This document shows, in pieces, positions 51,701-62,155 of a stretch of DNA of 62,224 bases. Numbering within the stretch: the stretch's first letter is position 1; each line of letters starts with the position of its first letter. Under the pieces are notes generated by a model. That model saw only the letters and a list, made by a program, of their open reading frames with translations, was not told the origin of the DNA and did no database searches. The stretch spans positions 1-62,224 of IMG/VR virus record IMGVR_UViG_3300030331_005246; one strand, written 5' to 3'. The stretch is from a virus (lineage: Duplodnaviria; Caudoviricetes). The translations under genes and the position numbers were made by a program.

Positions 51701-52034
51701 GTCCTCGACCTGGTTTTGGTCCTTGAGGCCCTGGTCTTGGACCGCTTGGCCCTTCCGAGGTGGGAGGCGAACCGCTTGCCTGCGGTTTCGTTCGGTTTTT
51801 AAACCCCTGCAGGCCGCGTCGACCCAGAAGAGCCGCACCACTGAGAACACCAAGTCCCAATAAGCCCGTACCAACGGCTTGAACCGGGTCAAAGTCTGAA
51901 TTTTGGTCCGCCTTCAGCTGGTTCTGGCGAAAATTCTGGACCATCGGGAATAATTCAGCCCGTTCTTCCGCTGATTGAGGGTATGGAGTGCCTGTTGCTC
52001 TGCTGTAGGCCGCATAATCTGCTGCAGTTACCAT
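48702..52034 (-). CDS. large hypothetical protein (1110 aa), putative internal virion protein
   Basis: First gene of the minus-strand block; one hydrophobic segment near the N-terminus. Confidence 0.7.
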   Translation of the reverse strand: MVTAADYAAYSRATGTPYPQSAEERAELFPMVQNFRQNQLKADQNSDFDPVQAVGTGLLGLGVLSGAALLGRRGLQGFKNRTKPQASGSPPTSEGPSGPRPGPQGPKPGRGPNAGSAAANAGSQVIDIDAVRVDRSQAAASNEFTDSIVQNQVNNPSTVNPTSQSFVINNAEKGAEAKAASLQSNPRPTYALGEAAVDVAESASGFNFDAFTDSTPANQVGNQASVRKAQRLADNTVSSLVDLLKKSDPVVEIQSDSAIDMARGLTPRQQRMMQDFAYTGSDVGPKKATLQDALADDMSGGLSERQLADPVLQRSLSQGSSGTSSAFMLTGDVRDLPTADGRTVRELSKSEQKALLGGRPRRNMFTDTNLETAERARRSPGGMRPDPAGFVAEMKNEAIDRINAAASLGDTAQEEVLRQQLLDPAVPKDKVQTLLGSTLREVRGRVGTNMQQEITEGARASFGRGDLANNDTEMLARRVQIGDDMYIVDDRNPFVARAAGQSFDPYGAEGLASAEGVGGIVDTETFRERTNTGTTEVPGMVMEATGGPISRGGRVSLSRAVPEQAADTQYVRMERAEDQQLPVRRADGDYDPARGIYVDPVTGATRLDQQAYRQYGKLYSDDLNTQGSRLTGGFEMDAPEASEYITEQPAQRRRRFDADVDERIETIDGVPYVMSSKNVVEGTEPLQGRMATRMKNPDGSTSLQFLEDRPFVDFQLSRRKVQKIVDDALYDYSNNPSMKKNFLEQFRPGELAEGVASGKLLNEIGSGATRNDFIIGRLYDELLQQGVEIPVLETQKNKFGSYHSTAAHTFLNDLLGTTKETRKYGAKAALDADGNIIYDYQKQGTDMVLTPRTQGEALEIPSAVKTGGVGGIDPMTIGDDYDDMRNVAFMTPRINTAPQVVLDARLVQDKKVVDPSTGKERNVRYGRVLSTSDSAAPRERYTGNQLPPRLTNKFAVIPDQTIERTYSPISERVIEQTRSRPSQIRSFGSSINRRDVGTAGAQMVDYRAAMETPPSERRVAYLSNLGGNMTANAQAIANTKRPYNDLANAAYGARFDPVPDNEPATRNLSYLQGQFDDPVDPISSMGENDINVMMSRSLAQADRRRGSRRN

Positions 52035-52428: not shown

Positions 52429-52990
52429 GATGAAGTGAATTTGGGTTAATTGTTTGGGGTAGAAGGGAACTTTTACCTCAATTTGTGCTGAAAATTTTTA
52501 TTTTTATTTATAATTTTATATTTTTTTAATTATTAACTCATATATGTGAAAAAGGCTAAAAATTATCCGAGACATCTCACACACGTCATCCGACTGTGAT
52601 GCCGTATAGAAAAAAAGAAAGGGTGGGATAGGTGTTAATACCTACTGGGCGGGACGGCAGCCAGTCGAGCGATGACTGTGACAATTTGGCCAACTGACAC
52701 ACTAACTGGCACACTAAGTGTCACACTGTGACAGTTGCCGAACTGTCCCCAACACCCCTGCGAAACCCGCAGACAATCCCCTAACCGGCCACCAGCGCCC
52801 GTTAAACCCCTGCGAAACCCAGCCGAAATCCCTTCCGGCGCAATGGATCTCAGACTTTTTGCGCCCATTTGGGAAAGATTTCCGCGCTAATAATCGCCGC
52901 GTAAGACTGTTATCTACACGATCTAAATGATAATTAAGCGAGAAAGTTGATACGAATTCGTATTACTTTCCGCCGTTAATCATAGATCTA
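52429..52990. promoter_or_regulatory. non-coding control region (AT-rich tract, short repeats, long palindrome); candidate origin, genome end or early promoter
   Basis: AT-rich 52490-52560; AACTG(A/G)CACACT x2; ACCCCTGCGAAACCC x2; GAAAGT-TG-ATACGAATTCGTAT-T-ACTTTC at 52942-52970. Confidence 0.55.
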
Positions 52991-52992
52991 AT

Positions 52993-53037
52993 CGTCAAGC
53001 TGGACGTTAAACGTAGCGCCAAACTCTACTCAACTCA
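52993..53037 (+). ncRNA. degenerate family-B pseudoknot element (copy B0)
   Basis: CGTC-AAGCTG-GACG-TTAAAC-GTAGC followed by CTACTCAACTC, just before ATG 53040. Confidence 0.5.
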
Positions 53038-53039
53038 TC

Positions 53040-53264
53040 ATGGCTTACACCATCAGCACCAAGCAAGCTGTTTACGAATTCAACGTCGCTTTCATCGAAG
53101 ACAAAGTCTTTACGAAAGAGGACACTGCACCATATGCAGGTGTTGTTTACGTCACCAAGTGGATTCTTAAAGGCTCAGGTTGCAAAGACGCTCATGTCTC
53201 CACCAGCACTGACCTGACTTCCGCTTGTAAGTGGATCAAACAGCTCAAAGCTTCCAACAAGTAA
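53040..53264 (+). CDS. early hypothetical protein
   Basis: First gene of the cassette array. Confidence 0.7.
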   Translation: MAYTISTKQAVYEFNVAFIEDKVFTKEDTAPYAGVVYVTKWILKGSGCKDAHVSTSTDLTSACKWIKQLKASNK

Positions 53265-53335
53265 CCACAGGCGTGACGCTGGAGCCTCGAAGGCTCCGGT
53301 TACTTATTGCCTCCAGCAGAGATAGGCACTGCACA
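53259..53335 (+). ncRNA. family-A structured element, copy 1 (three-way junction plus pseudoknot)
   Basis: AAGTAA/TTACTT closing stem, CAC-AGGC-GTG, GCTGGAGCC-TCGAA-GGCTCCGGT; then TGCCT-CCA-GCAG-AGAT-AGGCA-CTGC. Confidence 0.75.
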
Positions 53336-53348
53336 ACAGGAGATTCCT

Positions 53349-53600
53349 GTGACATACGTCGAACGCTTATCCGATGATGAGCTATGGACCGCTGCACTCA
53401 CTCTCGATAGTGAAGGCAACTACGTGTTCGGAGCCGCAGGCAAATTTGTTCTATTGGATCTTGATAGTCATGTGATGTCTTATTACATCAACACTGAAGA
53501 TCCTCTGCCTGAAGACTTCTATCACCACCCCAGCGATGCTGACTACGAAAACAGCATCTACGACGCTCAACTCGCTTATGAAGTGAGTACATCCAGCTGA
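53349..53600 (+). CDS. early hypothetical protein
   Basis: GTG start after AGGAG; in frame with track ORF 53307. Confidence 0.65.
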   Translation: MTYVERLSDDELWTAALTLDSEGNYVFGAAGKFVLLDLDSHVMSYYINTEDPLPEDFYHHPSDADYENSIYDAQLAYEVSTSS

Positions 53601-53670
53601 CCACCAGCGTGATGCCGGGGCCTCGAAGGCCCTGGTCAGCTCTTGCCTCCTGTGGAGATAGGCACCACAT
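53596..53670 (+). ncRNA. family-A structured element, copy 2
   Basis: GCTGA/TCAGC, CAC-CAGC-GTG, GCCGGGGCC-TCGAA-GGCCCTGGT; pseudoknot stem 2 changed to GTGG/CCAC. Confidence 0.75.
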
Positions 53671-53687
53671 CAAACCAGAAACCAACC

Positions 53688-53876
53688 GTGATCAACCAAC
53701 GCACGTATTTCGGCTTCGTTGCTACATGCATCGCACTCGTCGGAATAGGCGGTTATGGCTCCGTCCAACTCCTCGACAAAGCCACCGCACACCAGTGCAG
53801 CACCCATGACTGGCCTGCTGAGAAGCATGCAATCCATGTCGAGTGGTGCGAGCACAACAACTACCCAACCAACTGA
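53688..53876 (+). CDS. early small membrane protein
   Basis: GTG start; TM segment YFGFVATCIALVGIGGY. Confidence 0.6.
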   Translation: MINQRTYFGFVATCIALVGIGGYGSVQLLDKATAHQCSTHDWPAEKHAIHVEWCEHNNYPTN

Positions 53877-53947
53877 TTCGTTCAAGCGAGTGACCAGGTG
53901 CAAACCCTGGTCCAGTTATTGCCTCCAGCAGAGATCGGCACTGCACA
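53871..53947 (+). ncRNA. family-A structured element, copy 3
   Basis: AACTG/CAGTT, TTCG-TTCAAG-CGAG, ACCAGG-TGCAAAC-CCTGGT; TGCC..GCAG..GGCA-CTGC. Confidence 0.75.
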
Positions 53948-53961
53948 ATTTGATTTACTTC

Positions 53962-54120
53962 ATGAAAGTCCTTTATGAAGCAGTAGCAATCACCTCGGAC
54001 TATCAAATGATCCGATTTGGACCTCCATTCAAGACAGAGGAAGACGTGTGGTACTGGCTGCACTTTGAATGTGATTGCTGCCCCGAACATCGTTCAATCG
54101 AAGTTCTTCCAGTCGTCTGA
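53962..54120 (+). CDS. early hypothetical protein (52 aa, MKVLYEAVAITSD...)
   Basis: ATG 15 nt after the element. Confidence 0.6.
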   Translation: MKVLYEAVAITSDYQMIRFGPPFKTEEDVWYWLHFECDCCPEHRSIEVLPVV

Positions 54121-54195
54121 CTGATTCGTACAAGCGAGTGACCAGGTGCAAACCCTGGTCCAGTCCTTGCCCACAGCGGAGATGGGCACCGCACA
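54119..54195 (+). ncRNA. family-A structured element, copy 4
   Basis: GACTG/CAGTC closing stem; pseudoknot TGCCCA/TGGGCA with GCGG/CCGC (double covariation). Confidence 0.75.
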
Positions 54196-54210
54196 CAACA
54201 GGAGAATCCT

Positions 54211-54393
54211 GTGACCACTACCACTCGCCCCGCACGTTCTGACTGGGACGCCATCCACGTTCCTACTCGTGAAGAGTGCGGCGAGATCGTCTTCTGTCAG
54301 ATCAAGAATCTGATGGAGGACGGTTACTCCCAAACTCTCACCCGAGAGCACGCAGCAGAGATTGCAAAGTATGCAATCAGGCTGCTCAGCTGA
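54211..54393 (+). CDS. early hypothetical protein
   Basis: GTG start after AGGAG. Confidence 0.65.
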   Translation: MTTTTRPARSDWDAIHVPTREECGEIVFCQIKNLMEDGYSQTLTREHAAEIAKYAIRLLS

Positions 54394-54465
54394 TCCGTCA
54401 ACGCGGTCATCCCCGGTGCAATGCCGGGGTCAGCTTTTGCCTCCAGCAGAGATAGGCACTGCACA
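54388..54465 (+). ncRNA. family-A structured element, copy 5
   Basis: AGCTGA/TCAGCT, CCG-TCAACG-CGG, CCCCGG-TGCAATG-CCGGGG; pseudoknot identical to copy 1. Confidence 0.75.
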
Positions 54466-54479
54466 TTGTATTGCACACT

Positions 54480-54683
54480 ATGAAATGTTTTTCACTTCCA
54501 GTTGTTATTCCAACAGCTGTATTTGTTGCAGCAACTGCTATAGCTGCAGCTATTCCTCAACCTGCATGTGCACAACAAGCACAATGCTGGAACGAAATGC
54601 ATTACTACCAGAAGACGTGGGGTGGCTGCATACCAGTCCAACGCTTTCCAAACGGAAAGACCTTGCATGTCTGTTGCCGCTGA
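54480..54683 (+). CDS. early small secreted or membrane Cys-rich protein
   Basis: Signal-like hydrophobic N-terminus; multiple Cys. Confidence 0.6.
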   Translation: MKCFSLPVVIPTAVFVAATAIAAAIPQPACAQQAQCWNEMHYYQKTWGGCIPVQRFPNGKTLHVCCR

Positions 54684-54707
54684 CCCACAATTCCATAGTT
54701 AACACAT

Positions 54708-54749
54708 AGTCCTGAGCATGACTCTAAACTGCTCACGACTCAACTCAAC
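54708..54749 (+). ncRNA. family-B pseudoknot element, copy B1
   Basis: AGTC-CTGAGCAT-GACT-CTAAAC-TGCTCA-CGACTCAACTCAAC. Confidence 0.8.
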
Positions 54750-54763
54750 CGTTAATCATTCCA

Positions 54764-54982
54764 ATGACTCAATCCCCAGCGAGTTACATCAGCGCCATTG
54801 CATTCGGTATTGCCATTGGCCTCATCGGTTGTGTAAGCGGTCAACGCTTACTCAACAACCACAACACTGTGCAATGCGCTAACAAGAATGCAACGCACAA
54901 GCTTGTTACTTACAGCTCATACCTTGGCGATGCCAAATATTGTATGAACAAGCGTGCTTTTCATTACGGTCCTGCTCACTAA
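54764..54982 (+). CDS. early small membrane protein
   Basis: TM segment ISAIAFGIAIGLIGC. Confidence 0.65.
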   Translation: MTQSPASYISAIAFGIAIGLIGCVSGQRLLNNHNTVQCANKNATHKLVTYSSYLGDAKYCMNKRAFHYGPAH

Positions 54983-54991
54983 TTCCTCACC

Positions 54992-55168
54992 ATGACACCA
55001 CTCAACCTTCGCAACAAGTTCAGAACAGCAACACATCTGACAGCATCCGGCTTGATGAAAGCCGGTGATGCCGTTGCTGACATGCAGATGCCAGATACAG
55101 AATCTTTTGTACTTGGCATCAAGAAAATCCGCCGTAACATAGCTCAGACCATTCAACCCAACGATTGA
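54992..55168 (+). CDS. early hypothetical protein (58 aa)
   Basis: Read manually: MTPLNLRNKFRTATHL... Confidence 0.55.
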   Translation: MTPLNLRNKFRTATHLTASGLMKAGDAVADMQMPDTESFVLGIKKIRRNIAQTIQPND

Positions 55169-55175
55169 ATCCTTT

Positions 55176-55406
55176 ATGCAAGAAAGTTACACTGAGCGTC
55201 ACCCAGACAACAACATCAGCATCGAACTACCGATGCATGAAACCATCACGACATACCTACCGAACGGTTATCGGTTTGTCGTGGAAAACACAGGTGATCA
55301 AATCATCACTCGTTATTACAATCCCAATGACGAGTGTACCCGTGAAATCACCTGTGACTATAGCGGCGAGGTCCGTTACATCAACTTTCCAACCAAATCA
55401 GTTTAA
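55176..55406 (+). CDS. early hypothetical protein
   Basis: ORF track. Confidence 0.6.
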   Translation: MQESYTERHPDNNISIELPMHETITTYLPNGYRFVVENTGDQIITRYYNPNDECTREITCDYSGEVRYINFPTKSV

Positions 55407-55432
55407 TTATTCCTTAATCTTTCCTATTTGTT

Positions 55433-55606
55433 ATGTCCCCGCTCAACGAAACCCAAAAGACCACTTTGCCACTTATCGCACTGTGTGCCGTCGCAACACC
55501 GTTCGTCGGCCCAGTAGCACTCCTTGGTGGTCTTGGCATGACTGCATACTACTGCGCCAAATCCAACAAGAACCAATCCGATGACTCAACACACCCTAAG
55601 AACTGA
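55433..55606 (+). CDS. early small membrane protein (57 aa)
   Basis: Read manually: MSPLNETQKTTLPLIALCAVATPFVGPVALLGGLGM... Confidence 0.5.
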   Translation: MSPLNETQKTTLPLIALCAVATPFVGPVALLGGLGMTAYYCAKSNKNQSDDSTHPKN

Positions 55607-55733
55607 GGCCACACATCAATGGGGCAACACTACATTTCGTGTTGGCAATCGTTTTTACAACGTTGACTCGCACAAATCACCAGGCCTACGTAACAAATTA
55701 GGCCGCGCACTCATGAAGTTACTACACCTTTAA
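55581..55733 (+). CDS. early hypothetical protein (50 aa)
   Basis: Read manually: MTQHTLRTEATHQWGNTTFRVG...; stop immediately precedes element B2. Confidence 0.5.
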   Translation: MTQHTLRTEATHQWGNTTFRVGNRFYNVDSHKSPGLRNKLGRALMKLLHL

Positions 55734-55738
55734 TTCAT

Positions 55739-55766
55739 AGTCCTGAGTATGACTTTAAACTGCTCA
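55739..55766 (+). ncRNA. family-B pseudoknot element, copy B2
   Basis: AGTC-CTGAGTAT-GACT-TTAAAC-TGCTCA (U-G wobble in stem 2), followed by an extra hairpin. Confidence 0.8.
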
Positions 55767-55834
55767 TGTCAACAGAACGGCATTTACTTAACGTATCCGT
55801 TCTGACTTGTTAACTCAACTTAACTCTACTTGTT

Positions 55835-56122
55835 ATGTCCGACCATGCACACCGCATCATGATGCGTCAGCTCAATGCTGACGACAACATGATACACGCA
55901 GACGAGCAGTATGTCCACCAGCAGATCCTTGCTGAGCATGCATACCATCAAGAACAGGCTATGCGAGAAGGCATGCCTGAACCTAGTGAGACTCAACGTT
56001 CAGTGAGTGATCGATGCTTTAGCAACTGGATTTCATTGCTAAGTAACACAGGATCACATCGATCTCGCTGGTCAGAAGACGATGGTGACCTGCTCGACTA
56101 TCGTTCGGAGGATGTGATATGA
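55835..56122 (+). CDS. early hypothetical protein
   Basis: ORF track. Confidence 0.65.
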   Translation: MSDHAHRIMMRQLNADDNMIHADEQYVHQQILAEHAYHQEQAMREGMPEPSETQRSVSDRCFSNWISLLSNTGSHRSRWSEDDGDLLDYRSEDVI

Positions 56123-56243
56123 GTGACATGAAACTCCGACTTCTCGATCACACCAGATACAACGTTGAATATGTGGAGGAAGACACCCTCACCATTGTCG
56201 TTGCCCTGGTCTCCTGCTTCATCACTATTCTTCTTGACTTGTT

Positions 56244-56708
56244 ATGGCCACCATCACAGAAACAATCTTCGAGTTCAGAGTCCCCAGTGAATACGAAGTT
56301 TACAACAAGGGACTCTTTAATTTCATCGAACGTTATCCCAGAACAGGCGCAGCTCGTTACTGGCTCGAACAATACAACTATCTCACAGAGTTCAACGGCA
56401 AAGAACCAACAGCAATTCACATCCACCTTGTCTGGCAAGTCTACGTCTCACCTGCAGAAGGTGGCTGTTGGGACGAACGGCGTGAGCCCATCTACAACCA
56501 CCACGACCACAAAGACGACCAGATCAAAGAGGTCTCAACCATCTGTGTCTACAACAAGAAACAATGCATCAGAGAATGCCTTGCCCTCACCCAACACCAT
56601 GACCTTGCTTATCAACCAAGAATCGACACCACAGCAGACAACGTCGCCGTCGACGTAACGCTTGACCATGGCTACTGTCAAGCCAAGTACCCTTCTCCTT
56701 ATTGTTAA
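56244..56708 (+). CDS. early hypothetical protein
   Basis: ORF track; SPAEGGCW motif. Confidence 0.65.
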   Translation: MATITETIFEFRVPSEYEVYNKGLFNFIERYPRTGAARYWLEQYNYLTEFNGKEPTAIHIHLVWQVYVSPAEGGCWDERREPIYNHHDHKDDQIKEVSTICVYNKKQCIRECLALTQHHDLAYQPRIDTTADNVAVDVTLDHGYCQAKYPSPYC

Positions 56709-56714
56709 TTCACC

Positions 56715-56948
56715 ATGAACATTACTGTCCAAACAACAGGTCTTAAACCTGATTCAATGATTTACGATCTCAGACTTGATCGTGATGAATTCAAAGCTTT
56801 GTACTTTACTCTTGTAAGGTATCTTGAATCCCAGGATCCTAATGATGAGATTGACTTCCATAATGGCTACAAAATGTTTAAAGATATACACACTAGAAAG
56901 ACGGCGTATATATTAAGACACCTTGAATTAATAGGTGCCAAAGAATAG
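56715..56948 (+). CDS. early hypothetical protein
   Basis: ORF track. Confidence 0.6.
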   Translation: MNITVQTTGLKPDSMIYDLRLDRDEFKALYFTLVRYLESQDPNDEIDFHNGYKMFKDIHTRKTAYILRHLELIGAKE

Positions 56949-57053
56949 ATTAACTAACACAGCTATGCCTGGGCAGCACATCGTGCGTAAGTCCCAGGCT
57001 TTGTTGTAGTTATTTATATAAGTATTTCTTATGTCCCGCTACTTGTTTTAGCT

Positions 57054-57419
57054 ATGTCAATTCAGTTTCCATTGTATCGACTTCTCTATACCGAGAAGCT
57101 TGATCCTCCACATGACCATGTCACCAGATATCACACAATCGAGTGGTATCAAACCGACAAAGAAGCTCAATCAGCTGCCAAACGTTGGAACAAGAACCAC
57201 AGATACCACACCTCTGGGGTTCAGGCATGGCATGAAGCTGACTTCAAAGCTGAGTACAAACAATTCCAGGACGACTTCGATCCCTCACCCCAGGTCTACG
57301 ACGACTGGGCATCATGCCCTGACTACGACTCCTGGTTATACGACTGGATCGATGAGCGTAAGTATTACCACTTTGAACCTGCAGCACCACAATCACAACA
57401 ACTCACCAAACAATCATGA
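57054..57419 (+). CDS. early hypothetical protein
   Basis: ORF track. Confidence 0.6.
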   Translation: MSIQFPLYRLLYTEKLDPPHDHVTRYHTIEWYQTDKEAQSAAKRWNKNHRYHTSGVQAWHEADFKAEYKQFQDDFDPSPQVYDDWASCPDYDSWLYDWIDERKYYHFEPAAPQSQQLTKQS

Positions 57420-57588
57420 AAGTCTTCATTAATTTCTCCACAGATAACGCTGCGTTCGATCGACCAGATGATTACGCAGAGTTTGAACGCATCATGGAAG
57501 AACTCAAGACCACAATTAGCCATAACAACAGTGGTGTTATCCACGATATCAATGGCAACAAGATTGGACTATGGAGTTGGGTTGACTC

Positions 57589-57810
57589 ATGAAATACAAA
57601 CCCCATTTCGACATGCTTACAGCACGTGAGCAATTAATCGTAGACATGAACTTCATCGTTGAAGACATTACGTATGGCGCACTCAGTCCAAGCGAAATGA
57701 ATACTTTAACTCGCAAACTTTGTGATGCGGTGTACAAACACTTACCTACACCAACAGTGCCATGTGGCACTGAAATAATTTATTGGCGTTTTGTTGACTT
57801 ACCTAATTGA
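57589..57810 (+). CDS. early hypothetical protein, paralog of 57814..58002
   Basis: KPHFD.L.A.EQL...LTRKLCDAVYK..PTPT shared. Confidence 0.7.
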   Translation: MKYKPHFDMLTAREQLIVDMNFIVEDITYGALSPSEMNTLTRKLCDAVYKHLPTPTVPCGTEIIYWRFVDLPN

Positions 57811-57813
57811 CCC

Positions 57814-58002
57814 ATGGAAAACAAACCTCACTTCGACAACCTGAGAGCATGCGAGCAACTAATGGAAGACATTGAATCCATCATTGAAAACTTTTGGTAT
57901 GCGACCTGGCCTGAAGGTCAATTTCTAGAAGATAGAAATGACTTGACCCGCAAGCTTTGCGATGCCGTTTACAAAAACTATCCCACCCCAACACCTGATT
58001 GA
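57814..58002 (+). CDS. early hypothetical protein, paralog of 57589..57810
   Basis: Shared motifs with the upstream gene. Confidence 0.7.
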   Translation: MENKPHFDNLRACEQLMEDIESIIENFWYATWPEGQFLEDRNDLTRKLCDAVYKNYPTPTPD

Positions 58003-58005
58003 CCC

Positions 58006-58233
58006 ATGATTGAACTCAACGGCTTTTGCACTGATGAACCCTTCACATTTGACGAGGGCATGACAGAGGAAGACTTTAGATCTGAGGTCATCAAGTGTCT
58101 CCAAAATCAAAGAGATGATCTTGATACTTTGTTTAATGCATTTGTTCTTATGGCAAATATGGCCGATCTTGACCCCCATGCGCTGTTCCAAGCAGCAAAG
58201 CTCATTCAAAGAGACATCTCCACACCTGATTGA
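58006..58233 (+). CDS. early hypothetical protein
   Basis: Flanked by CACACCTGATTGACC(C/T)ATG junctions. Confidence 0.65.
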   Translation: MIELNGFCTDEPFTFDEGMTEEDFRSEVIKCLQNQRDDLDTLFNAFVLMANMADLDPHALFQAAKLIQRDISTPD

Positions 58234-58236
58234 CCT

Positions 58237-58419
58237 ATGAACCACGAAAACCGTGACACCCTCATCTACAACTACGCAACGCAGGTTGTTGATGACATGG
58301 ACTTCAAAGATCTCTGCGTTTTTGCAGTCGAGACAATTGAGAAAAACATGGAAAGCTACAGCGATGAAGAAGTCATCACTGAAATCAAGGACCACTATCC
58401 ACACTTACTTGAGGATTGA
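58237..58419 (+). CDS. early acidic hypothetical protein
   Basis: YATQVVDDMDFKDL...YSDEEVITEIKDHYPHLLED. Confidence 0.65.
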   Translation: MNHENRDTLIYNYATQVVDDMDFKDLCVFAVETIEKNMESYSDEEVITEIKDHYPHLLED

Positions 58420-58543
58420 CCCATGACCTACCGTAGGTCTTATTAAAGGTTTAGGTGATTCCCTTTAATAAGAAAACTTCTTATTAAAGTTTTGCCCGTT
58501 ACTCCAGTTTAGGAGCAATCGAGCCTCACGATTAATCCAATCA

Positions 58544-58585
58544 AGTCCTGAGCATGACTTTAAACTGCTTACTACTCAACTCAAC
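58544..58585 (+). ncRNA. family-B pseudoknot element, copy B3
   Basis: AGTC-CTGAGCAT-GACT-TTAAAC-TGCTTA-CTACTCAACTCAAC. Confidence 0.8.
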
Positions 58586-58598
58586 TTGTTTCTAACTC

Positions 58599-58772
58599 AT
58601 GAAACATTTCAAAGTCGTTTACGAACAGCACCTATGGGTTGATGGCCATGGCTACTCAACCAGCAGGCGTTTTCAAGACATTTACGCCAAAGACATGGAC
58701 CACGCCCTAGGTAAATGGTCAGTCATGCAGCTTGACAACCAATCACTGATGTTTATCATCGAACAACCCTAA
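58599..58772 (+). CDS. early hypothetical protein (57 aa)
   Basis: Read manually; fills the B3-B4 interval. Confidence 0.6.
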   Translation: MKHFKVVYEQHLWVDGHGYSTSRRFQDIYAKDMDHALGKWSVMQLDNQSLMFIIEQP

Positions 58773-58777
58773 TCAAT

Positions 58778-58819
58778 AGTCCTGAGCATGACTATAAACT
58801 GCTCACTACTCAACTCAAC
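58778..58819 (+). ncRNA. family-B pseudoknot element, copy B4
   Basis: AGTC-CTGAGCAT-GACT-ATAAAC-TGCTCA-CTACTCAACTCAAC. Confidence 0.8.
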
Positions 58820-58839
58820 TTGGTTCTAACTATTGACCC

Positions 58840-59019
58840 ATGACCAAACGACAATTCCCCTTGATGCTCAATGAGGAGCAAGCCGAGTTTGTGCATAACG
58901 CTGTCTGCGGTGTCCCCGACGATCAACGCAAGGACGGCGACGAGGAGGTTCTCGGTTACCTACTCGAAGAACTCGACATAATCCTTTGCCGTGTTCAACT
59001 CTCTGATCCCTTTGATTGA
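58840..59019 (+). CDS. early hypothetical protein (59 aa)
   Basis: Read manually: MTKRQFPLMLNEEQAEFV... Confidence 0.6.
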   Translation: MTKRQFPLMLNEEQAEFVHNAVCGVPDDQRKDGDEEVLGYLLEELDIILCRVQLSDPFD

Positions 59020-59022
59020 CTT

Positions 59023-59214
59023 ATGGACTACACACTCACAGACAAACAACGCATCCTTATCGTCAACGCATTGAAAAAATACCATGCGTGGCTTGGTATA
59101 AGAGCGGAGCAAGCCTTGTACGAGAAAAACCAAGATGAAATCCTTTGGCTCATTGATCTTATTGATCTAAACCAATACATCACGCTATCAGATTCACGAC
59201 CCACACCTGATTGA
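59023..59214 (+). CDS. early hypothetical protein
   Basis: MDYTLTDKQRILIVNAL. Confidence 0.65.
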   Translation: MDYTLTDKQRILIVNALKKYHAWLGIRAEQALYEKNQDEILWLIDLIDLNQYITLSDSRPTPD

Positions 59215-59217
59215 CCT

Positions 59218-59388
59218 ATGGACTACACACTCACAGAAAGACAATGCGGAATGATCATCAACGCATTAAACATTTATGTCGACAACTGTCCACGTTCATA
59301 CATACAAGAAGTCGAAACAATCATTGAGCTTCTTGATGACGAAGTTCATGCTCACTACCACGGCATTAAATTCGCCACACTTAACTAA
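59218..59388 (+). CDS. early hypothetical protein, paralog of 59023..59214
   Basis: MDYTLTERQCGMIINAL, read manually. Confidence 0.6.
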   Translation: MDYTLTERQCGMIINALNIYVDNCPRSYIQEVETIIELLDDEVHAHYHGIKFATLN

Positions 59389-59396
59389 CAACAACC

Positions 59397-59600
59397 ATGC
59401 CAACTACCAGAGTTTACGTTTGCGTCGATGCTGCTCATCAATCAATTGAACTTCAATCAGACAATGGCACCGACGCAATAGAAGATGCAGGCCTAGAAAT
59501 TGTCAGTGACATTACTGATGATTGTGCTGGTGATTTCAGTGACATCCTGACACTGGAACAATTGCTATCTTCTGAATCTAACTTCGTTCCTCACGATTAA
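59397..59600 (+). CDS. early hypothetical protein
   Basis: ORF track. Confidence 0.55.
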   Translation: MPTTRVYVCVDAAHQSIELQSDNGTDAIEDAGLEIVSDITDDCAGDFSDILTLEQLLSSESNFVPHD

Positions 59601-59604
59601 TCTA

Positions 59605-59859
59605 ATGAAATTTTCTGATCTTCACTTCAAACCAATGAAACATACGCGAGCAGGCCAACAAGCCAAGCATAGATTCAGTAATGGTTGGTCGATCTCAATC
59701 ATTACTGGGTGTGGCTGGATGTATACGTCACCTAACAGTCCTTATGAAGTTGCAGTTATTAAACCAACAGGTGAATTCTTAAACGATGATGTTCTTAGTC
59801 ATCAAAGCAAAGAAGACATTGATGCTCTTTTGAAAAAGGTAGGTAATATCCCTACTTAA
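59605..59859 (+). CDS. conserved phage hypothetical protein
   Basis: MKFSDLHF...FSNGWSISII...YEVAVI. Confidence 0.7.
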   Translation: MKFSDLHFKPMKHTRAGQQAKHRFSNGWSISIITGCGWMYTSPNSPYEVAVIKPTGEFLNDDVLSHQSKEDIDALLKKVGNIPT

Positions 59860-59864
59860 TCAAT

Positions 59865-59906
59865 AGTCCTGAGCATGACTTTAAACTGCTCACTACTCAA
59901 CTCAAC
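59865..59906 (+). ncRNA. family-B pseudoknot element, copy B5
   Basis: AGTC-CTGAGCAT-GACT-TTAAAC-TGCTCA-CTACTCAACTCAAC. Confidence 0.8.
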
Positions 59907-59918
59907 TTGTTTCTAGCT

Positions 59919-60395
59919 ATGGGCCTCGACATGTACCTCAAAGGTGTCAAGTACTTTACTACTTGCACCCATGAACACGAAGCTGGTGTTGGCTTCGTCA
60001 GTAAGATCAACCCACTCTACCAGTCAATCGCTGAACATTTTGACATCGAATGCGACGATGAGTTAGGCGTTGGTGAAATCCACATGCCAGTCATGTACTG
60101 GCGCAAGGCCAACCAAATTCACAAATGGTTTGTTGACAACACTCAAGGTGGTGAAGACAAGAATTGTGAGCCAACTCCTGTCAGCAAAGAACAGCTTCAA
60201 CAATTGCTTGATGATGTCACCTTTGTGCTCGAGCACAAAGATCCATCAGTGCTGCCAACCCAATCTGGATTTTTCTTTGGCAGCACTGACATTGATGATT
60301 ACTATTGGGAAGACTTGAACAACACACGTTCAGCTCTAGAAAAACTATTGAAAGCTGATAAGTTTGAAAGCTTCATCTATCAGTCTTCCTGGTAA
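59919..60395 (+). CDS. conserved phage hypothetical protein (MGLDMYL...YWRKANQIHKWF family)
   Basis: MGLDMYL, YWRKANQIHKWF, LPTQSGFFFG, YQSSW. Confidence 0.8.
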   Translation: MGLDMYLKGVKYFTTCTHEHEAGVGFVSKINPLYQSIAEHFDIECDDELGVGEIHMPVMYWRKANQIHKWFVDNTQGGEDKNCEPTPVSKEQLQQLLDDVTFVLEHKDPSVLPTQSGFFFGSTDIDDYYWEDLNNTRSALEKLLKADKFESFIYQSSW

Positions 60396-60404
60396 TACCT
60401 CTCA

Positions 60405-60446
60405 CGTCCTGAGCATGACTTTAAACTGCTCACTACTCAACTCAAC
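60405..60446 (+). ncRNA. family-B pseudoknot element, copy B6
   Basis: (C)GTC-CTGAGCAT-GAC(T)-TTAAAC-TGCTCA-CTACTCAACTCAAC. Confidence 0.8.
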
Positions 60447-60458
60447 TTGTTTCTAACC

Positions 60459-60983
60459 ATGGGTGAATACTGCTACCGACTGGCTGACAGACAGTCAGTC
60501 AAGATGGGTACATGCGCTGACATGTACTACCTCAGATTTGAAGACATGGCTGATGTAGAACCAGAAGAAGGTTCATCGTTTGGCTCACGCTTCCGTCTAC
60601 CTTGGCCTGATGAAGACCAGTACTTGCCTGGTGACTACTGCGATGGACAAGCACAAGGTGGCTACAGAGAATGCGCTCTTGTTGGTGACAGAATTAATGG
60701 CAAACTTCGATTCTTCCAACCAGCACCAGAAGAAATGCGTGAGACAGGTCCTTTCTACAGACTCACTGCTGTTCGCTGGTATGACAATTGTCTTGTCCCT
60801 GTTGTCTCTAGCTACATGAAAGAAGATGATAGTCAATTCAATTACATGCAGAGATGGCGTGACACCTGGCCCAATGTCCTGCCATACATTGGCAGCACTG
60901 GAGTCAAACTAGAACTCAAAGGCAGGCTGTACATGTACAGCATCATTACCAATGTGACTCATGCATTTACTTATGCATCGTAA
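60459..60983 (+). CDS. early hypothetical protein
   Basis: MGEY...VKMGTCADMYYLRFED...RFRLPWPDED. Confidence 0.7.
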   Translation: MGEYCYRLADRQSVKMGTCADMYYLRFEDMADVEPEEGSSFGSRFRLPWPDEDQYLPGDYCDGQAQGGYRECALVGDRINGKLRFFQPAPEEMRETGPFYRLTAVRWYDNCLVPVVSSYMKEDDSQFNYMQRWRDTWPNVLPYIGSTGVKLELKGRLYMYSIITNVTHAFTYAS

Positions 60984-60992
60984 TTAATCTCA

Positions 60993-61032
60993 CGTCCTGA
61001 GCATGACTATAAACTGCTCATGTCAACTCAAC
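60993..61032 (+). ncRNA. family-B pseudoknot element, copy B7
   Basis: (C)GTC-CTGAGCAT-GAC(T)-ATAAAC-TGCTCA-TGTCAACTCAAC. Confidence 0.8.
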
Positions 61033-61042
61033 TCTACTTGTT

Positions 61043-61780
61043 ATGATCAACAACATCGATGCAATCAAATCCAAGATTGCCAAACTGTTGCGTATGCAGA
61101 CCTCAGGTAATGCCAACGAGGCTGCCAATGCTGCTGCCAAGGTGCACCAACTCTGTCAAGAGTATGGCCTCTCACCTGATCACATCGATCCCAACGCAGA
61201 CTCAACAGCACACCAACCCACCCATTGGTTCATGAATTTCATGGGTAAACGTTGCAACGCTGAGCAAACAATGCTGCTAGATGGCATTGTTAAATACTTC
61301 AATGGCAAAATAATTCTCAATGATCATGAGGGTCAAAAATGTTGTGAAGTATTTGCCAGTGAAGGCAGACGCATTGAAATCGAGATTTACTTTGAGTATC
61401 TCATTGAGACCATGACCAAACAGGCTGATGAAACCAGAGAGGAAAGAGATCCCTACCACGAAGACCCTACCTTCAAACGTAACTTCCGCAAAGGCTTTGC
61501 CGAGAAAGTTCAACGCAGGTTAATTGACATGCGTAAAGAAGAACAGATCGAAGCGGAAGACAACAACCACCAGGAAGCACTCGTTGCTCTCAGCCGTGGC
61601 AAGCAAGAGTTTACTCGTAATCTAGACTTGCTCAAACGCACCCATCCCAGACTCAAAAAGAGTAGTGGGTGGACTAATTCCCATGGCAATGGTGGCAGCA
61701 GCGGCAGAGCTGCTGGCTCACGTGTTGGACTCAACCGCCAAATGGCCAAAGGCAGCTCACGTCAGCTGAAAGGTTACTGA
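61043..61780 (+). CDS. DUF2786-domain protein
   Basis: IKSKIAKLLRM..SGNANEAANAAAKVHQLCQEYGL N-terminal domain; FRKGFAEKVQRRL; GRAAGSRVGLNRQM C-terminus. Confidence 0.8.
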   Translation: MINNIDAIKSKIAKLLRMQTSGNANEAANAAAKVHQLCQEYGLSPDHIDPNADSTAHQPTHWFMNFMGKRCNAEQTMLLDGIVKYFNGKIILNDHEGQKCCEVFASEGRRIEIEIYFEYLIETMTKQADETREERDPYHEDPTFKRNFRKGFAEKVQRRLIDMRKEEQIEAEDNNHQEALVALSRGKQEFTRNLDLLKRTHPRLKKSSGWTNSHGNGGSSGRAAGSRVGLNRQMAKGSSRQLKGY

Positions 61781-61786
61781 TGACAT

Positions 61787-61829
61787 CGTCCTGGACATGA
61801 CGTTAAACTGTCTACATACTCAACTCAAC
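61787..61829 (+). ncRNA. family-B pseudoknot element, copy B8 (covariant)
   Basis: CGTC-CTGGACAT-GACG-TTAAAC-TGTCTA-CATACTCAACTCAAC. Confidence 0.8.
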
Positions 61830-61834
61830 TTGTT

Positions 61835-62155
61835 ATGACTTCATCAATTGACATGACTTCATCAATTACGACCTATGACATGCTGCTTCTTCTTATTGAA
61901 CAAGAGAAAGAAGCATACCGAAAACTACTTGGCAATGTTGGATATCCTTTACATGCTGATGACAAGACTCTGTTGTTTGAATTGTTTCTCGATGACAAGT
62001 ATACAAAGTTTGTCATGAGACTCAGCTATACACCAATGGATGGTGAGTCTGGTAGGCCATATCACAGACTCAAATGCACCATGACACTTAATGGCAAGCC
62101 TATCAGTTTAACTGCTCTCAAACTTATCGCTTGCACGGAGAAACTCAATGGCTAA
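61835..62155 (+). CDS. early hypothetical protein
   Basis: ORF track; follows element B8. Confidence 0.6.
   Translation: MTSSIDMTSSITTYDMLLLLIEQEKEAYRKLLGNVGYPLHADDKTLLFELFLDDKYTKFVMRLSYTPMDGESGRPYHRLKCTMTLNGKPISLTALKLIACTEKLNG

What the first reader, a model, noticed from the sequence alone, without database searches (positions are those of the whole stretch)
52993..62155. RNA-structure-punctuated gene-cassette array in the early region (candidate undescribed system)
Seen: about 30 small, co-oriented, mostly unknown ORFs are separated by 14 copies of two structured element families (A x5, B x9) plus a short stop-start junction repeat. Most elements begin at or within a few nt of an upstream stop codon and end about 15-35 nt before the next start, giving [element][gene(s)] units. 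Both families keep their base pairing through compensatory changes, which argues for RNA-level function rather than a plain DNA repeat. Known analogy: PeSL repeats of T4-type phages promote shuffling of early genes, but those are promoter stem-loops, not pseudoknots. Inference: the elements process, stabilise or activate translation of individual cistrons from one early transcript, and may also act as recombination joints for exchanging host-takeover or anti-defence genes.
Basis: partly seen in the sequence, partly recalled or inferred. Interest (0 to 1): 0.9.

Follow-up and report, generated by a model that had tools for sequence, protein, structure and literature searches.

The report
Structured RNA punctuation between phage genes
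A cyanophage-like virus separates about thirty small genes with two kinds of tightly folded RNA elements, a tiny pseudoknot that also occurs in many other phages and bacteria and a tRNA look-alike, and neither is in the RNA family catalogue, so they may show how such viruses cut up or stabilise their messages.

Summary
Window 52993-62155 is a co-directional array of about 31 small ORFs in a relative of Synechococcus phage S-EIVl. It holds 5 copies of element A (74-75 nt) and 8 full copies plus 1 degenerate copy of element B (28 nt).

B is an H-type pseudoknot, (N)GUC-C-UGRRYA-U-GAC(N)-NUAAAC-UGYYYA. Both stems covary in 139 homologues. The motif occurs in more than 117 IMG/VR stretches, in cultured phages of cyanobacteria, Actinobacteria and Firmicutes, and in 70 stretches of prokaryote genomes.

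A is a tRNA-like junction followed by a second covarying pseudoknot. Its outer stem plus 7-nt-loop hairpin sum to 12 bp in 62 of 119 parsed copies.

Rfam 15 matches neither element, even with lax thresholds.

In sister phages a real tRNA-Leu sits the same distance (18-29 nt) upstream of the next start codon. B can abut the 5' end of a tRNA. B shares a locus with pistol ribozymes.

My best reading (0.4) is RNA-level punctuation: signals for tRNA-processing enzymes plus pseudoknot end-caps or insulators that set each cistron's processing and stability. No RNA data could be obtained, so function is inferred. Cassette exchange at the elements is not shown; a crude control found no excess of shuffling there.

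The parts
52993..62155 (+). Co-directional array of about 31 small ORFs (50-245 aa), mostly without relatives
   Evidence: ORF lists and gene table. Only 5 of 31 products have a tblastn hit in the 233 fetched viral loci. One product has DUF2786/DUF7168; 5 others scanned against Pfam have no family.
52993..53018 (+). B0: degenerate B-like pseudoknot at the head of the array
   Evidence: Read. Only GACGUUAAAC matches model R1 (9.1 bits). The leader CTACTCAACTCA is shared with the other B copies (D5). Next start 21 nt on.
53259..53332 (+). A1: tRNA-like junction plus pseudoknot
   Evidence: The TAA stop of the upstream ORF lies in the outer stem. GTG start 16 nt after the pseudoknot.
53595..53668 (+). 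A2
   Evidence: The pseudoknot carries the compensated variant CUGUGG/CCAC.
53871..53944 (+). A3
54119..54192 (+). A4
   Evidence: Stem 1 is compensated (UGCCC/GGGCA).
54388..54462 (+). A5
54708..54735 (+). B1 pseudoknot
   Evidence: (51.2 bits).
55739..55766 (+). B2 pseudoknot. Its leader carries an extra 8-bp hairpin at about 55773-55804.
   Evidence: (52.6 bits).
58544..58571 (+). B3 pseudoknot
   Evidence: (48.2 bits).
58778..58805 (+). B4 pseudoknot
   Evidence: (53.9 bits).
59865..59892 (+). B5 pseudoknot
   Evidence: (56.6 bits).
60405..60432 (+). B6 pseudoknot
   Evidence: (52.8 bits).
60993..61020 (+). B7 pseudoknot
   Evidence: (51.3 bits).
61787..61814 (+). B8 pseudoknot, with compensated changes in both stems
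   Evidence: (50.2 bits).
58572..58598 (+). Example of the G-poor leader (CUACUCAACUCAACUUGUU...) between B and the start codon. The same kind follows B0, B1 and B4-B8.
   Evidence: D3, D5 and D10 repeats. Leaders after B hold 9% G against 22% overall in 92 unique leaders.
53336..53351 (+). Small hairpin that holds the Shine-Dalgarno sequence and the GTG start after A1. A twin lies after A4 at 54198-54213.
   Evidence: D16 repeat, read. The same motif follows many A copies elsewhere.
57797..58245 (+). Stop-start junction repeats CCTGATTGACCYATG (57797-57822, 57989-58014, 58220-58245; a fourth at 59201-59226) between tandem small genes
   Evidence: D6. Paralogy of the flanking genes.
56967..57006 (+). 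Terminator-like hairpin followed by a T-run. It splits the array in a gap that has no A or B.
   Evidence: Read. The pattern scan does not list it (the loop is too long).
58439..58472 (+). AT-rich hairpin in the long gap upstream of B3
   Evidence: Read.

Best explanation
A and B are autonomous folded modules in one long sense-strand transcript, and they delimit its cistrons.

Shown.
- B is a compact H-type pseudoknot: stem 1 of 4 bp, a 1-nt loop (C), stem 2 of 6 bp, a junction U, and an A-rich loop NUAAAC.
- A is a three-way junction. Its outer stem plus its 7-nt-loop hairpin make a 12-bp tRNA-like minihelix. One unpaired base follows, then a second pseudoknot.
- Both sit packed between the footprint of the ribosome terminating on the upstream gene and that of the ribosome initiating on the downstream gene.

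Inferred.
- The tRNA-like part is a signal for the host's tRNA-processing enzymes. These would be RNase Z after the unpaired base, and possibly RNase P. This is as in mitochondrial tRNA punctuation and plant t-elements.
- The pseudoknots act as end-caps and insulators. They would stop exonucleases and keep the G-poor leader of the next gene unpaired.
- Each small gene would then get its own mRNA end, half-life and translation, independent of its neighbours.
- As a side effect, the repeats offer homology for gain and loss of the genes between them.
For: Structure.
- B stem 2 is paired in 100% of cells. It shows AU80/GC53/GU6 at one pair and GC105/AU24/UA5/CG3/GU2 at the next. The fourth pair of stem 1 shows five pair types. 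Covariation is 0.326 against 0.179 in shuffles, with 0 of 500 shuffles reaching it.
- In hits not chosen by the B pattern, G-C becomes A-U, U-A becomes C-G, and the middle pair of stem 1 flips U-A to A-U.
- A pseudoknot pairs: CG100/UA15/AU1, GC98/AU17/GU1 and UA66/CG38/UG10.

tRNA likeness of A.
- 119 of 129 copies parse as an outer stem plus a 7-nt-loop hairpin. The sum is 12 bp in 62 copies and 11-13 bp in 101, although the two stems vary from 3-9 and 4-8 bp.
- One unpaired nt precedes the pseudoknot in 66 of 119.
- The loops are T-loop-like: UGCAAAC 49, AUCGAAU 18, UUCGAUU 7.

Position shared with real tRNAs.
- Upstream of one conserved 120-aa gene, sister contigs carry a tRNA-Leu(UAA) or only a hairpin. 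More distant homologues of that gene carry A there.
- 24 of 29 loci scanned have the tRNA. CCA is encoded in 23 of 24. The next ORF starts 18-29 nt after CCA in 19 of 24.
- That is the same range as after B, 81 of 141.

Link of B to processing.
- B ends 1-2 nt before a tRNA in L069 and in Arthrobacter phage Molivia, and 13 nt before one in L089.
- B shares a strand and locus with two pistol ribozymes. One of them starts at a stop codon.

Packing.
- The distance from the stop to B has a sharp floor: 6 nt in 38, 7 nt in 14, and 5-12 nt in 80 of 141.
- The leaders are G-poor, 9% G.
Against: - No RNA ends, cleavage or half-lives were seen. No RNA run holds the sequence.
- In A the upstream stop codon lies in the 5' strand of the outer stem (107 of 119). 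A cut by RNase P there would leave the upstream message without a stop codon.
- The loop bases are invariant: C, U and UAAAC in B, GAGAU in A. That is more than stability alone requires and points to a specific partner or ligand.
- In 16 of 17 bacterial loci a tiny leader ORF ends inside B. That looks like translational control rather than end-capping.
- In some Firmicute phages B follows a terminator hairpin directly, where a 3' cap would be redundant.
- Two of the gaps of 54 nt or more in the array lack any element.
Confidence: 0.4

Rival explanations
1. Translation-initiation modules. The pseudoknot sits just 5' of the 30S footprint. It acts as a standby or S1-type landing site, or keeps the leader open, to drive translation of genes that mostly lack Shine-Dalgarno sequences.
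For: - The distance to the start codon is tight: 18-29 nt in 81 of 141 B copies and 16-19 nt for all 5 A copies in the window.
- Leaders are G-poor. An SD-like motif is present in only 19 of 92 leaders after B.
- The A pseudoknot displays a GGAG-like GAGAU in its loop.
- In bacterial loci B lies 7-28 nt before the regulator's start and overlaps the stop of a leader ORF.
Against: - B also directly precedes tRNA genes.
- In 27 of 141 cases the next ORF starts more than 60 nt away, and in 11 none was found.
- A real tRNA sits the same distance before the next start.
- B is found in hosts with strong SD use as well.
Confidence: 0.2
2. Aptamers for a common ligand or protein (a riboswitch or operator). 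One signal would then set the expression of many early genes at once.
For: - The loop and junction bases are invariant, while stem bases vary freely.
- The size and topology are like the smallest pseudoknot riboswitches (recalled).
- The spread across phyla fits a universal ligand.
Against: - No expression platform: B overlaps neither a terminator nor the SD or start in the phage copies.
- The downstream genes are unrelated to each other and include tRNAs.
- No Rfam riboswitch model matches, even at E up to 10 on 81-96-nt stretches.
Confidence: 0.12
3. New small self-cleaving ribozymes that cut the polycistronic RNA without host enzymes.
For: - The position is the same as for pistol ribozymes in L245.
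- The hairpin-AUAAAC-pseudoknot layout of B resembles the 5' half of pistol (read).
- The unpaired bases are invariant.
Against: - B is only 27-28 nt and has no conserved partner strand or second helix downstream.
- The Rfam pistol, hammerhead, twister, hatchet and HDV models do not match.
- No cleavage data exist.
Confidence: 0.1
4. Recoding or pausing signals. A pseudoknot 5-6 nt after the stop codon would stall the terminating ribosome or promote read-through or frameshifting.
For: - The spacing from stop to B peaks at 6 nt (38 of 141), the classical spacer for stimulatory pseudoknots (recalled).
- The B topology is like luteovirus frameshift pseudoknots (recalled).
Against: - No in-frame X XXY YYZ heptamer lies near any of the 13 upstream stops.
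- The spacing has a long tail up to 118 nt and shows no frame preference.
- Read-through products would be short and are not conserved (read).
- B also follows terminators and precedes tRNAs.
Confidence: 0.05
5. DNA-level elements: promoters, PeSL-like promoter/terminator cassettes, or recombination sites of an integron-like cassette system.
For: - They are repeats between small variable genes.
- One metagenomic variant lacks the gene and the A copy between A3 and A4.
- The same flanking gene is joined through A or B to different partners, for example 11 instances with 6 partners.
Against: - Pseudoknot covariation with G-U but no A-C pairs shows a fold of the sense strand.
- Promoter-like sites are not enriched (22 against 17.0 +/- 4.1) and are not centred on the elements.
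- No integrase was found among 30 proteins of the window scanned with PHROGs.
- Partner diversity is no higher than at element-free junctions.
- Two other gene-sized indels are not bounded by elements.
Confidence: 0.05

Closest known systems
tRNA punctuation and plant mitochondrial t-elements (Forner et al. 2007, PMC1920247, abstract read)
   Same: tRNA-like structures between or beside coding regions of polycistronic RNAs are proposed as cis-signals for RNase Z and/or RNase P. Here A has a 12-bp acceptor/T-arm-like minihelix, and real tRNAs sit in the same position before the next start in sister phages.
   Different: This is a phage of bacteria, not an organelle. The tRNA-like part is fused to a conserved pseudoknot. 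The upstream stop codon lies inside the outer stem. No cleavage has been shown.
RNase III processing sites between T7 early genes (recalled, no paper read)
   Same: Repeated structured elements between early cistrons of one transcript. They cut it into stable monocistronic mRNAs and leave protective hairpins.
   Different: T7 sites are long irregular hairpins of about 20 bp or more. A and B have stems of 4-8 bp and are pseudoknots. The element sequences and the host range differ.
PeSL elements of T4-type phages (Comeau et al. 2014, PMC4122927, abstract read; Arbiol et al. 2010, listing only)
   Same: Short repeats between variable small early genes in hyperplastic regions, said to mediate modular shuffling.
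   Different: PeSLs are composite terminator/promoter DNA motifs. A and B show no promoter consensus and are conserved as RNA folds. Shuffling at A and B is not shown to exceed background.
Pistol self-cleaving ribozyme (Rfam RF02679)
   Same: It sits between genes in phage-like loci. A P1 hairpin's loop forms a 6-bp pseudoknot after an A-rich linker (UAUAAAC against AUAAAC). It co-occurs with B in L245.
   Different: B lacks the P2/P3 helices and the G-U cleavage site. The pistol model does not match B.
MALAT1/MEN-beta triple helix followed by the tRNA-like mascRNA (recalled)
   Same: A compact A-rich triplex-type structure lies just upstream of a tRNA(-like) unit, so that the RNase P cut leaves a protected 3' end. 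B-tRNA junctions with 1-2 nt between them have the same layout.
   Different: That is a eukaryotic nuclear lncRNA with a different fold class. In A the order is reversed (tRNA-like part first, then the pseudoknot).
Compact H-type pseudoknots of luteovirus frameshift sites and exoribonuclease-resistant RNAs (recalled; xrRNA papers seen only as a listing)
   Same: 28-nt class pseudoknots with a one-base loop 1, a junction U and an A-rich loop in the minor groove. They are mechanical blocks to enzymes that move along RNA.
   Different: There is no slippery site. A ring-like xrRNA fold and nuclease resistance are untested.

Membership tests
Any Rfam 15 family (including pistol, preQ1-I/II/III, SAM-II, tRNA, tmRNA, GP20-a/b) | Covariance-model match at the gathering score, or at least a suggestive sub-threshold match | tested here: not met
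   0 matches in the whole window at gathering score. At E up to 10, only snoRNA/miRNA chance matches away from the elements. None of note on 81-nt and 96-nt stretches around B5 and A1.
tRNA gene | Cloverleaf with an anticodon arm, detected by ARAGORN or the Rfam tRNA model | tested here: not met
   ARAGORN finds 0 genes in the window. No Rfam tRNA hit. A has only 14-17 nt, or a short hairpin, where the D and anticodon arms would be.
tRNA-like processing signal (t-element type) | Acceptor/T-arm-like coaxial minihelix of about 12 bp with a 7-nt T-loop-like loop and an unpaired base 3' of it | tested here: met
   Sum of 12 bp in 62 and 11-13 bp in 101 of 119 parsed copies. 7-nt loop by construction of the parse. 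1 unpaired nt in 66 of 119. Three hairpin pairs covary in an independent RNAalifold run on 86 of the 129 copies.
tRNA-like processing signal (t-element type) | Cleavage by RNase P and/or RNase Z at its borders | not testable with these tools
   No RNA run holds the sequence. Needs enzyme assays or end mapping.
PeSL (T4-type promoter-early stem-loop) | Sigma-70-type early promoter joined to a terminator stem-loop within the repeat | tested here: not met
   Promoter-like sites 22 against 17.0 +/- 4.1 in shuffles. Only weak 9-of-12 matches touch B7 and B8; none touch the other elements. One A hairpin is listed as terminator-like, but without a general T-run.
PeSL (T4-type promoter-early stem-loop) | Indels and gene replacements between related genomes bounded by the repeats | tested here: inconclusive
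   One variant is bounded by A3 and A4, and two gene-sized indels are not bounded. Partner diversity at element junctions is 0.41 and 0.74, against 0.70 and 0.66 at element-free junctions.
RNase III site (T7 type) | Hairpin of about two helical turns of double-stranded RNA | tested here: not met
   The longest helices are 4-8 bp.
Programmed -1 frameshift or read-through signal | Slippery heptamer or leaky stop 5-9 nt upstream of the pseudoknot, with a conserved extended product | tested here: not met
   The spacer peak of 6 nt is met. No in-frame heptamer lies at any of 13 stops, and the extension frames are not conserved (read).
Riboswitch | Aptamer coupled to an expression platform and to a coherent set of downstream genes | tested here: not met
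   B ends 18-29 nt before starts and does not overlap an SD or a terminator. Downstream genes are unrelated ORFans and tRNAs.
Integron-type cassette array | Adjacent integrase and attC-type imperfect inverted repeats folded from the bottom strand | tested here: not met
   No integrase among 30 window proteins scanned with PHROGs. The contig is 79% complete, so absence is not proven. The folds are on the sense strand.

The most novel reading that the evidence does not exclude
B is an uncatalogued, ancient and very widespread functional RNA class of phages and bacteria. It would be the smallest natural nuclease-stopping (xrRNA-like) pseudoknot or a minimal ribozyme or aptamer. Together with the tRNA-like A element and real tRNAs, it would form a bacterial-virus counterpart of mitochondrial tRNA punctuation. 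Long early transcripts would be cut by host tRNA-processing enzymes into individually capped, individually stable mini-messages.
Probability: 0.25. Interest if true: 0.9.

Novelty: new variant of a known kind. Interest (0 to 1): 0.78.

Why it matters
- **Two new RNA motif classes.** They have unusually clean covariation: more than 100 sequences each and both stems of two pseudoknots. No function is known and there is no Rfam entry. B reaches from cyanophages to phages of mycobacteria, Arthrobacter, lactobacilli and Geobacillus, and to many uncultured bacterial lineages.
- **If they work as proposed,** they would show that tailed phages use tRNA-style punctuation and pseudoknot caps to set the fate of each small early gene. 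That bears on how host-takeover and anti-defence genes are expressed and exchanged.
- **A possible tool.** It would also give synthetic biology a 28-nt insulator.
- **Directly testable.** The cultured phage S-EIVl carries 7 B copies.
- **A separate lead.** The bacterial leader-ORF-plus-B arrangement upstream of Rrf2-type regulators is worth following on its own.

Tried and rejected
- **Expression data.** The look-up of sequencing runs listed 16 DNA runs and no RNA holder, so transcription and RNA ends could not be examined.
- **Read laying.** It gave low-depth contigs only. Many loose ends at B copies are probably cross-mapping or breaks of unitigs at repeats. I did not use them as evidence, apart from the variant at 53948, which was seen in two runs.
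- **Megablast of the region against phage records.** No match.
- **Regex survey of elements next to homologues of window genes.** Uninformative, because end coordinates were imprecise and the patterns too strict.
- **One fixed structure for the 5' domain of A on a MAFFT alignment.** This failed because the two subtypes are out of register by one column. RNAalifold recovered only 3 hairpin pairs plus pseudoknot stem 1. I used a per-sequence parse instead.
- **A proposed fifth pair of A stem 2 (columns 13-31).** Rejected: 102 of 116 copies are unpaired there.
- **A small ORF starting at the invariant AUG inside B.** Considered and dropped. Its end and frame relative to the main start differ among the window copies (read).
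- **Selenocysteine insertion at the UGA inside B in the bacterial leader ORFs.** Considered and dropped, because too little structure lies 3' of the UGA.
- **UG27-type ncRNA arrays that template cDNA (preprint 10.64898/2026.09.22.753630, passages read).** Rejected. Those units are about 150 nt and go with a reverse transcriptase; none was seen here.
- **Papers not seen.** The S-EIV1 genome paper is not held. The supplements of Fremin et al. 2023 (PMC10690425), which list 10,006 candidate viral RNAs, could not be opened, so A or B may be among those unnamed candidates.

Full report
**What the window is.** The window is a whole IMG/VR record of 62,224 nt, with a CheckV completeness estimate of 79.
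- Its 793-aa structural protein is 64.7% identical, over 99% of its length, to a protein of Synechococcus phage S-EIVl. That phage was the only hit among 50,697 phage records.
- PHROG scans name a primase, terminase, major head protein, tail fibres, endolysins, dCTP deaminase and a ferredoxin-type gene. No integrase or RNA polymerase appeared among the 30 proteins scanned.
- The 16 sequencing runs that hold the region are marine metagenome DNA runs.

**The observation.** From 52993 to 62155 the + strand carries about 31 small ORFs.
- The repeat finder recovers the B family (D1, D2), the A family (D4, D7) and the stop-start junction repeat (D6).
- None is expected by chance: there were 0 matches in 100 shuffles for either core.
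- A has 5 copies of 74-75 nt.
- B has 8 full copies of 28 nt (48-57 bits with my model) and one degenerate copy at 52993-53018 (9.1 bits over 10 nt only).
- 12 of the 14 gaps of 54 nt or more between called genes hold an A or a B. One of the two empty gaps has a terminator-like hairpin, and the other has an uncertain gene call.

*Geometry*.
- Every A starts 2-6 nt inside the upstream ORF and ends 16-19 nt before the next start.
- 6 of 8 full B copies start 5-9 nt after the upstream stop.
- 7 of 8 full B copies end 20-34 nt before the next start.

**Element B.** The core is (N)GUC-C-UGRRYA-U-GAC(N)-NUAAAC-UGYYYA. GUC pairs with GAC (stem 1), and UGRRYA pairs with UGYYYA (stem 2). This is an H-type pseudoknot with a 1-nt first loop, a single junction U and an A-rich third loop.

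*Spread.*
It found 70 stretches among one genome per prokaryote species.
- With 19 fixed bases, a few chance hits are expected in 596 Gb. In fact 70 of 71 genome matches keep all four variable pairs of stem 2; the exception is L294.

*Covariation.*
- On 139 unique viral and window copies, stem 2 is paired in 100% of cells. The pairs are AU80/GC53/GU6 and GC105/AU24/UA5/CG3/GU2.
- The outer pair of stem 1 has CG61/UG19/AU17/UA15/GC4 and 23 unpaired.
- The covariation score is 0.326 against 0.179 in shuffles (0 of 500 reach it). Sliding the partner by one to three columns gives 20-49% pairing.
- The pattern forced many columns. I therefore searched 97 loci that had been picked by the A pattern, plus S-EIVl, with a covariance model. 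The 37 hits show the forced positions changing in a compensated way: G-C to A-U, U-A to C-G, and the middle pair of stem 1 from U-A to A-U.
- There are 77 G-U pairs and no A-C pairs in stem 2. The fold is therefore on the sense strand, which points to RNA.

*Where B occurs.*
- S-EIVl has 7 copies at E of 0.02 or less, one of them directly upstream of its SSB gene.
- In Lactobacillus phage phiEF-1.1 and Geobacillus phage D6E, B lies between the portal or a small ORF and the scaffold gene.
- In Mycobacterium phage Labelle and Arthrobacter phage Molivia, B lies just after a gene and before tRNAs.
- Nostoc, Microcystis, Paracoccus, Moorella, Bacillus and Streptococcus phages also carry it.
- It is absent from 5,426 complete E. 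coli genomes at E up to 10.

**Element A.** *The 3' part* is UUGCCY-NC-NGNNG-AGAU-RGGCA-CNNC.
- Its hairpin stem and a loop-to-tail helix both covary on 116 copies: UA66/CG38/UG10/other 2, CG100/UA15/AU1, and GC98/AU17/GU1. No shuffle of 500 reaches the observed covariation.
- I had dropped 4 of 120 unique pattern hits (L129, L158, L169, L227) that lie in coding-like sequence without the upstream domain.

*The 5' part* is a three-way junction.
- In 119 of 129 unique copies, a hairpin with a 7-nt loop is flanked by an outer stem.
- The two helices vary (3-9 and 4-8 bp), but their sum is 12 bp in 62 copies and 11-13 bp in 101.
- One unpaired base separates the outer stem from the pseudoknot in 66 copies.
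- A stop triplet overlaps the 5' strand of the outer stem in 107.
- The loops are T-loop-like: UGCAAAC 49, AUCGAAU 18, UGCAAUG 8, UUCGAUU 7.
- RNAalifold on 86 of the 129 copies independently finds three hairpin pairs with 33, 42 and 1 doubly changed sequences.
- Twelve base pairs is the length of the acceptor/T-arm stack of tRNA (established knowledge).
- ARAGORN and Rfam do not call these tRNAs. S-EIVl itself has no A by my pattern.

**Not a known family.**
- Rfam 15 gives nothing at gathering score on the window.
- At E up to 10 on the 9.3-kb region it gives only chance snoRNA/miRNA matches away from the elements.
- It gives nothing of note on 81-nt and 96-nt stretches around B5 and A1.
- 18 bacterial loci with B gave 0 hits. 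14 phage array loci gave only 4 tRNAs.
- Literal searches for six 14-nt strings of B found no paper.
- Keyword searches turned up no description of either element.
- Fremin et al. 2023 (PMC10690425, passages read) list 10,006 unnamed candidate viral RNAs. I could not see their supplements, so A or B may be among them.

**Clues to function.**
1. *Packing.* In 141 unique B contexts, the upstream stop ends 6 nt before the G of GUCC in 38, 7 nt before in 14, and 5-12 nt before in 80. Only 10 are closer, and there is a long tail. The next ORF starts 18-29 nt after B in 81. These are about the distances at which a terminating and an initiating ribosome would just clear the fold (inference from known ribosome footprints). 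The element seems meant to stay folded.
2. *Leaders.* The spacer after B holds 9% G, against 22% overall. It has an SD-like motif in 19 of 92 cases. After A the figures are 16% G and 52 of 96.
3. *Real tRNAs in the same position.* Upstream of one conserved 120-aa gene, related contigs carry an 86-nt tRNA-Leu(UAA), a 74-78-nt form, or only a hairpin. More distant homologues of that gene carry A there. ARAGORN finds the tRNA in 24 of 29 loci scanned. CCA is encoded in 23 of 24, and the next ORF starts 18-29 nt after CCA in 19 of 24. A tRNA must be cut out by RNase P and a 3' nuclease to work, so cleavage of the transcript at this position is tolerated in this lineage.
4. *B next to tRNAs.* B ends 1 nt before a tRNA in L069, 1-2 nt before one in phage Molivia, and 13 nt before one in L089. 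B is therefore not only a translation signal. A cut by RNase P would leave it at the very 3' end of the upstream RNA.
5. *Ribozyme neighbours.* A Coxiellaceae MAG contig has two pistol ribozymes (68 and 61 bits) and one B on one strand. The first pistol starts at the stop codon of an ORF.

**Best reading and its weak points.** I read A and B as RNA punctuation.
- A's tRNA-like half would be a signal for tRNA-processing enzymes.
- The pseudoknots would be end-caps and insulators for the resulting or neighbouring cistrons.

What is shown is the folds, their spread, their packing, and the tRNA sitting the same distance before the next start. Cleavage and protection are inferred.

*Evidence against this reading.*
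- The stop codon lies inside A's outer stem, so a 5' cut there would remove it.
- The invariant loop bases suggest a specific partner.
- In 16 of 17 bacterial loci, the UGA stop of a 22-26-codon leader ORF (M..RYMLRPVAHC.EGC...SWA) falls on U-G-A of the pseudoknot. An Rrf2-type regulator often starts 7-28 nt downstream. No Pfam or NCBIfam family fits the peptide. That looks like translational coupling.
- In some Firmicute phages, B follows a terminator hairpin and T-run directly.

I give the punctuation reading 0.4. The rivals are a translation enhancer (0.2), a ligand or protein aptamer (0.12), a ribozyme (0.1), recoding (0.05) and a DNA-level element (0.05).

**Cassette exchange.**
- Only 5 of the 31 products have any tblastn hit in 233 fetched viral loci, while the elements are conserved.
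- Contigs of two runs join the end of A3 to an SD hairpin and a gene like the one after A4. That variant lacks one gene plus one A copy. Two other gene-sized skips (56704-56950 and 59043-59239) are not bounded by A or B.
- Across loci, one upstream gene family (11 instances) is joined through A to 6 different downstream families. One downstream family (16 instances) is joined through B to 12 different upstream families.
- With naive ORF calls, the ratio of distinct partners to instances is 0.41 and 0.74 at element junctions. At element-free junctions it is 0.70 and 0.66. Shuffling is general in these regions and is not shown to be focused on the elements.
- Promoter-like sites are not enriched (22 against 17.0 +/- 4.1) and are not centred on the elements. 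The PeSL model (composite terminator/promoter, PMC4122927, abstract read) therefore does not fit.

**Verdict.** These are two uncatalogued structured RNA classes. One of them is widespread across phages and prokaryote genomes. The mechanism remains inferred, and the decisive experiments are simple because a cultured phage carries B.

Noticed in passing
L243, L244, L247, L249, L250, L272, L273, L276, L280, L284, L288, L291, L295, L299, L304, L306, L310 (bacterial/MAG contigs): A Shine-Dalgarno sequence precedes a 22-26-codon leader ORF (M..R[YF]M[LI]RPVAHC.EGC...SW[AV]). In 16 of 17 loci its UGA stop is the U-G-A inside the B pseudoknot. An Rrf2-type regulator often starts 7-28 nt after B. The peptide has no Pfam or NCBIfam family. 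It looks like an undescribed leader-peptide/pseudoknot control unit.
   Followed up: partly
L245:2821-2883, 3231-3257, 5460-5530: Two Rfam pistol ribozymes and one B element lie on the same strand of a Coxiellaceae MAG contig. The first pistol begins at the stop codon of ORF 2558-2821. Its hairpin-UAUAAAC linker resembles B's hairpin-AUAAAC.
   Followed up: partly
L204, L070, L136, L059, L199, L194, L037, L041, L029, L048 and 14 further loci: S-EIV1-like contigs carry one tRNA-Leu(UAA) between genes. It is either a normal 86-nt form or an odd 74-78-nt form without the long variable arm. A conserved long hairpin (ACUUGG...CCAAGU) precedes it. The window itself has no tRNA.
   Followed up: partly
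window 53336-53351 and 54198-54213; many loci: After A elements, the SD (GGAG) and the start codon often sit in one small hairpin (ACAGGAGAUUCCUGUG, CAUGGAGAUAUCCAUG, CACGGAGAACACCGUG). The stem covaries with the start codon context.
   Followed up: no
window 57589-58419 and 59023-59388: Tandem paralogous small genes (52% identity, and 60% over 20 aa) are joined by CCTGATTGACCYATG stop-start junctions. Contigs of two runs skip 59043-59239, which looks like recombination between the paralogues.
   Followed up: partly
window 56704-56950: Contigs of two metagenome runs skip 245 nt. This removes exactly the 77-aa gene 56715-56948, and no A or B lies at the borders.
   Followed up: no
window 48702-52034 (-): A 1110-aa ORF next to the array, in a stretch of 52% G+C, has no PHROG or Pfam match. 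The 999-aa and 581-aa ORFs also have none.
   Followed up: no
window 52430-52990: A long AT-rich non-coding stretch with direct repeats (CCCCTGCGAAACCC twice) lies between the divergent 1110-aa gene side and the head of the array. It is a likely control region and was not analysed.
   Followed up: no
L242, L248, L283, L301, L311 and viral L057, L091, L104, L118, L123: In Firmicute (pro)phages, B is followed by a second conserved stretch (AAGCGUUUCUGGUU..AUGAGUCAGAAGGGCAAAUUGAAAGG) upstream of a GP20-type scaffold gene. The Rfam GP20 motifs did not match L242.
   Followed up: no
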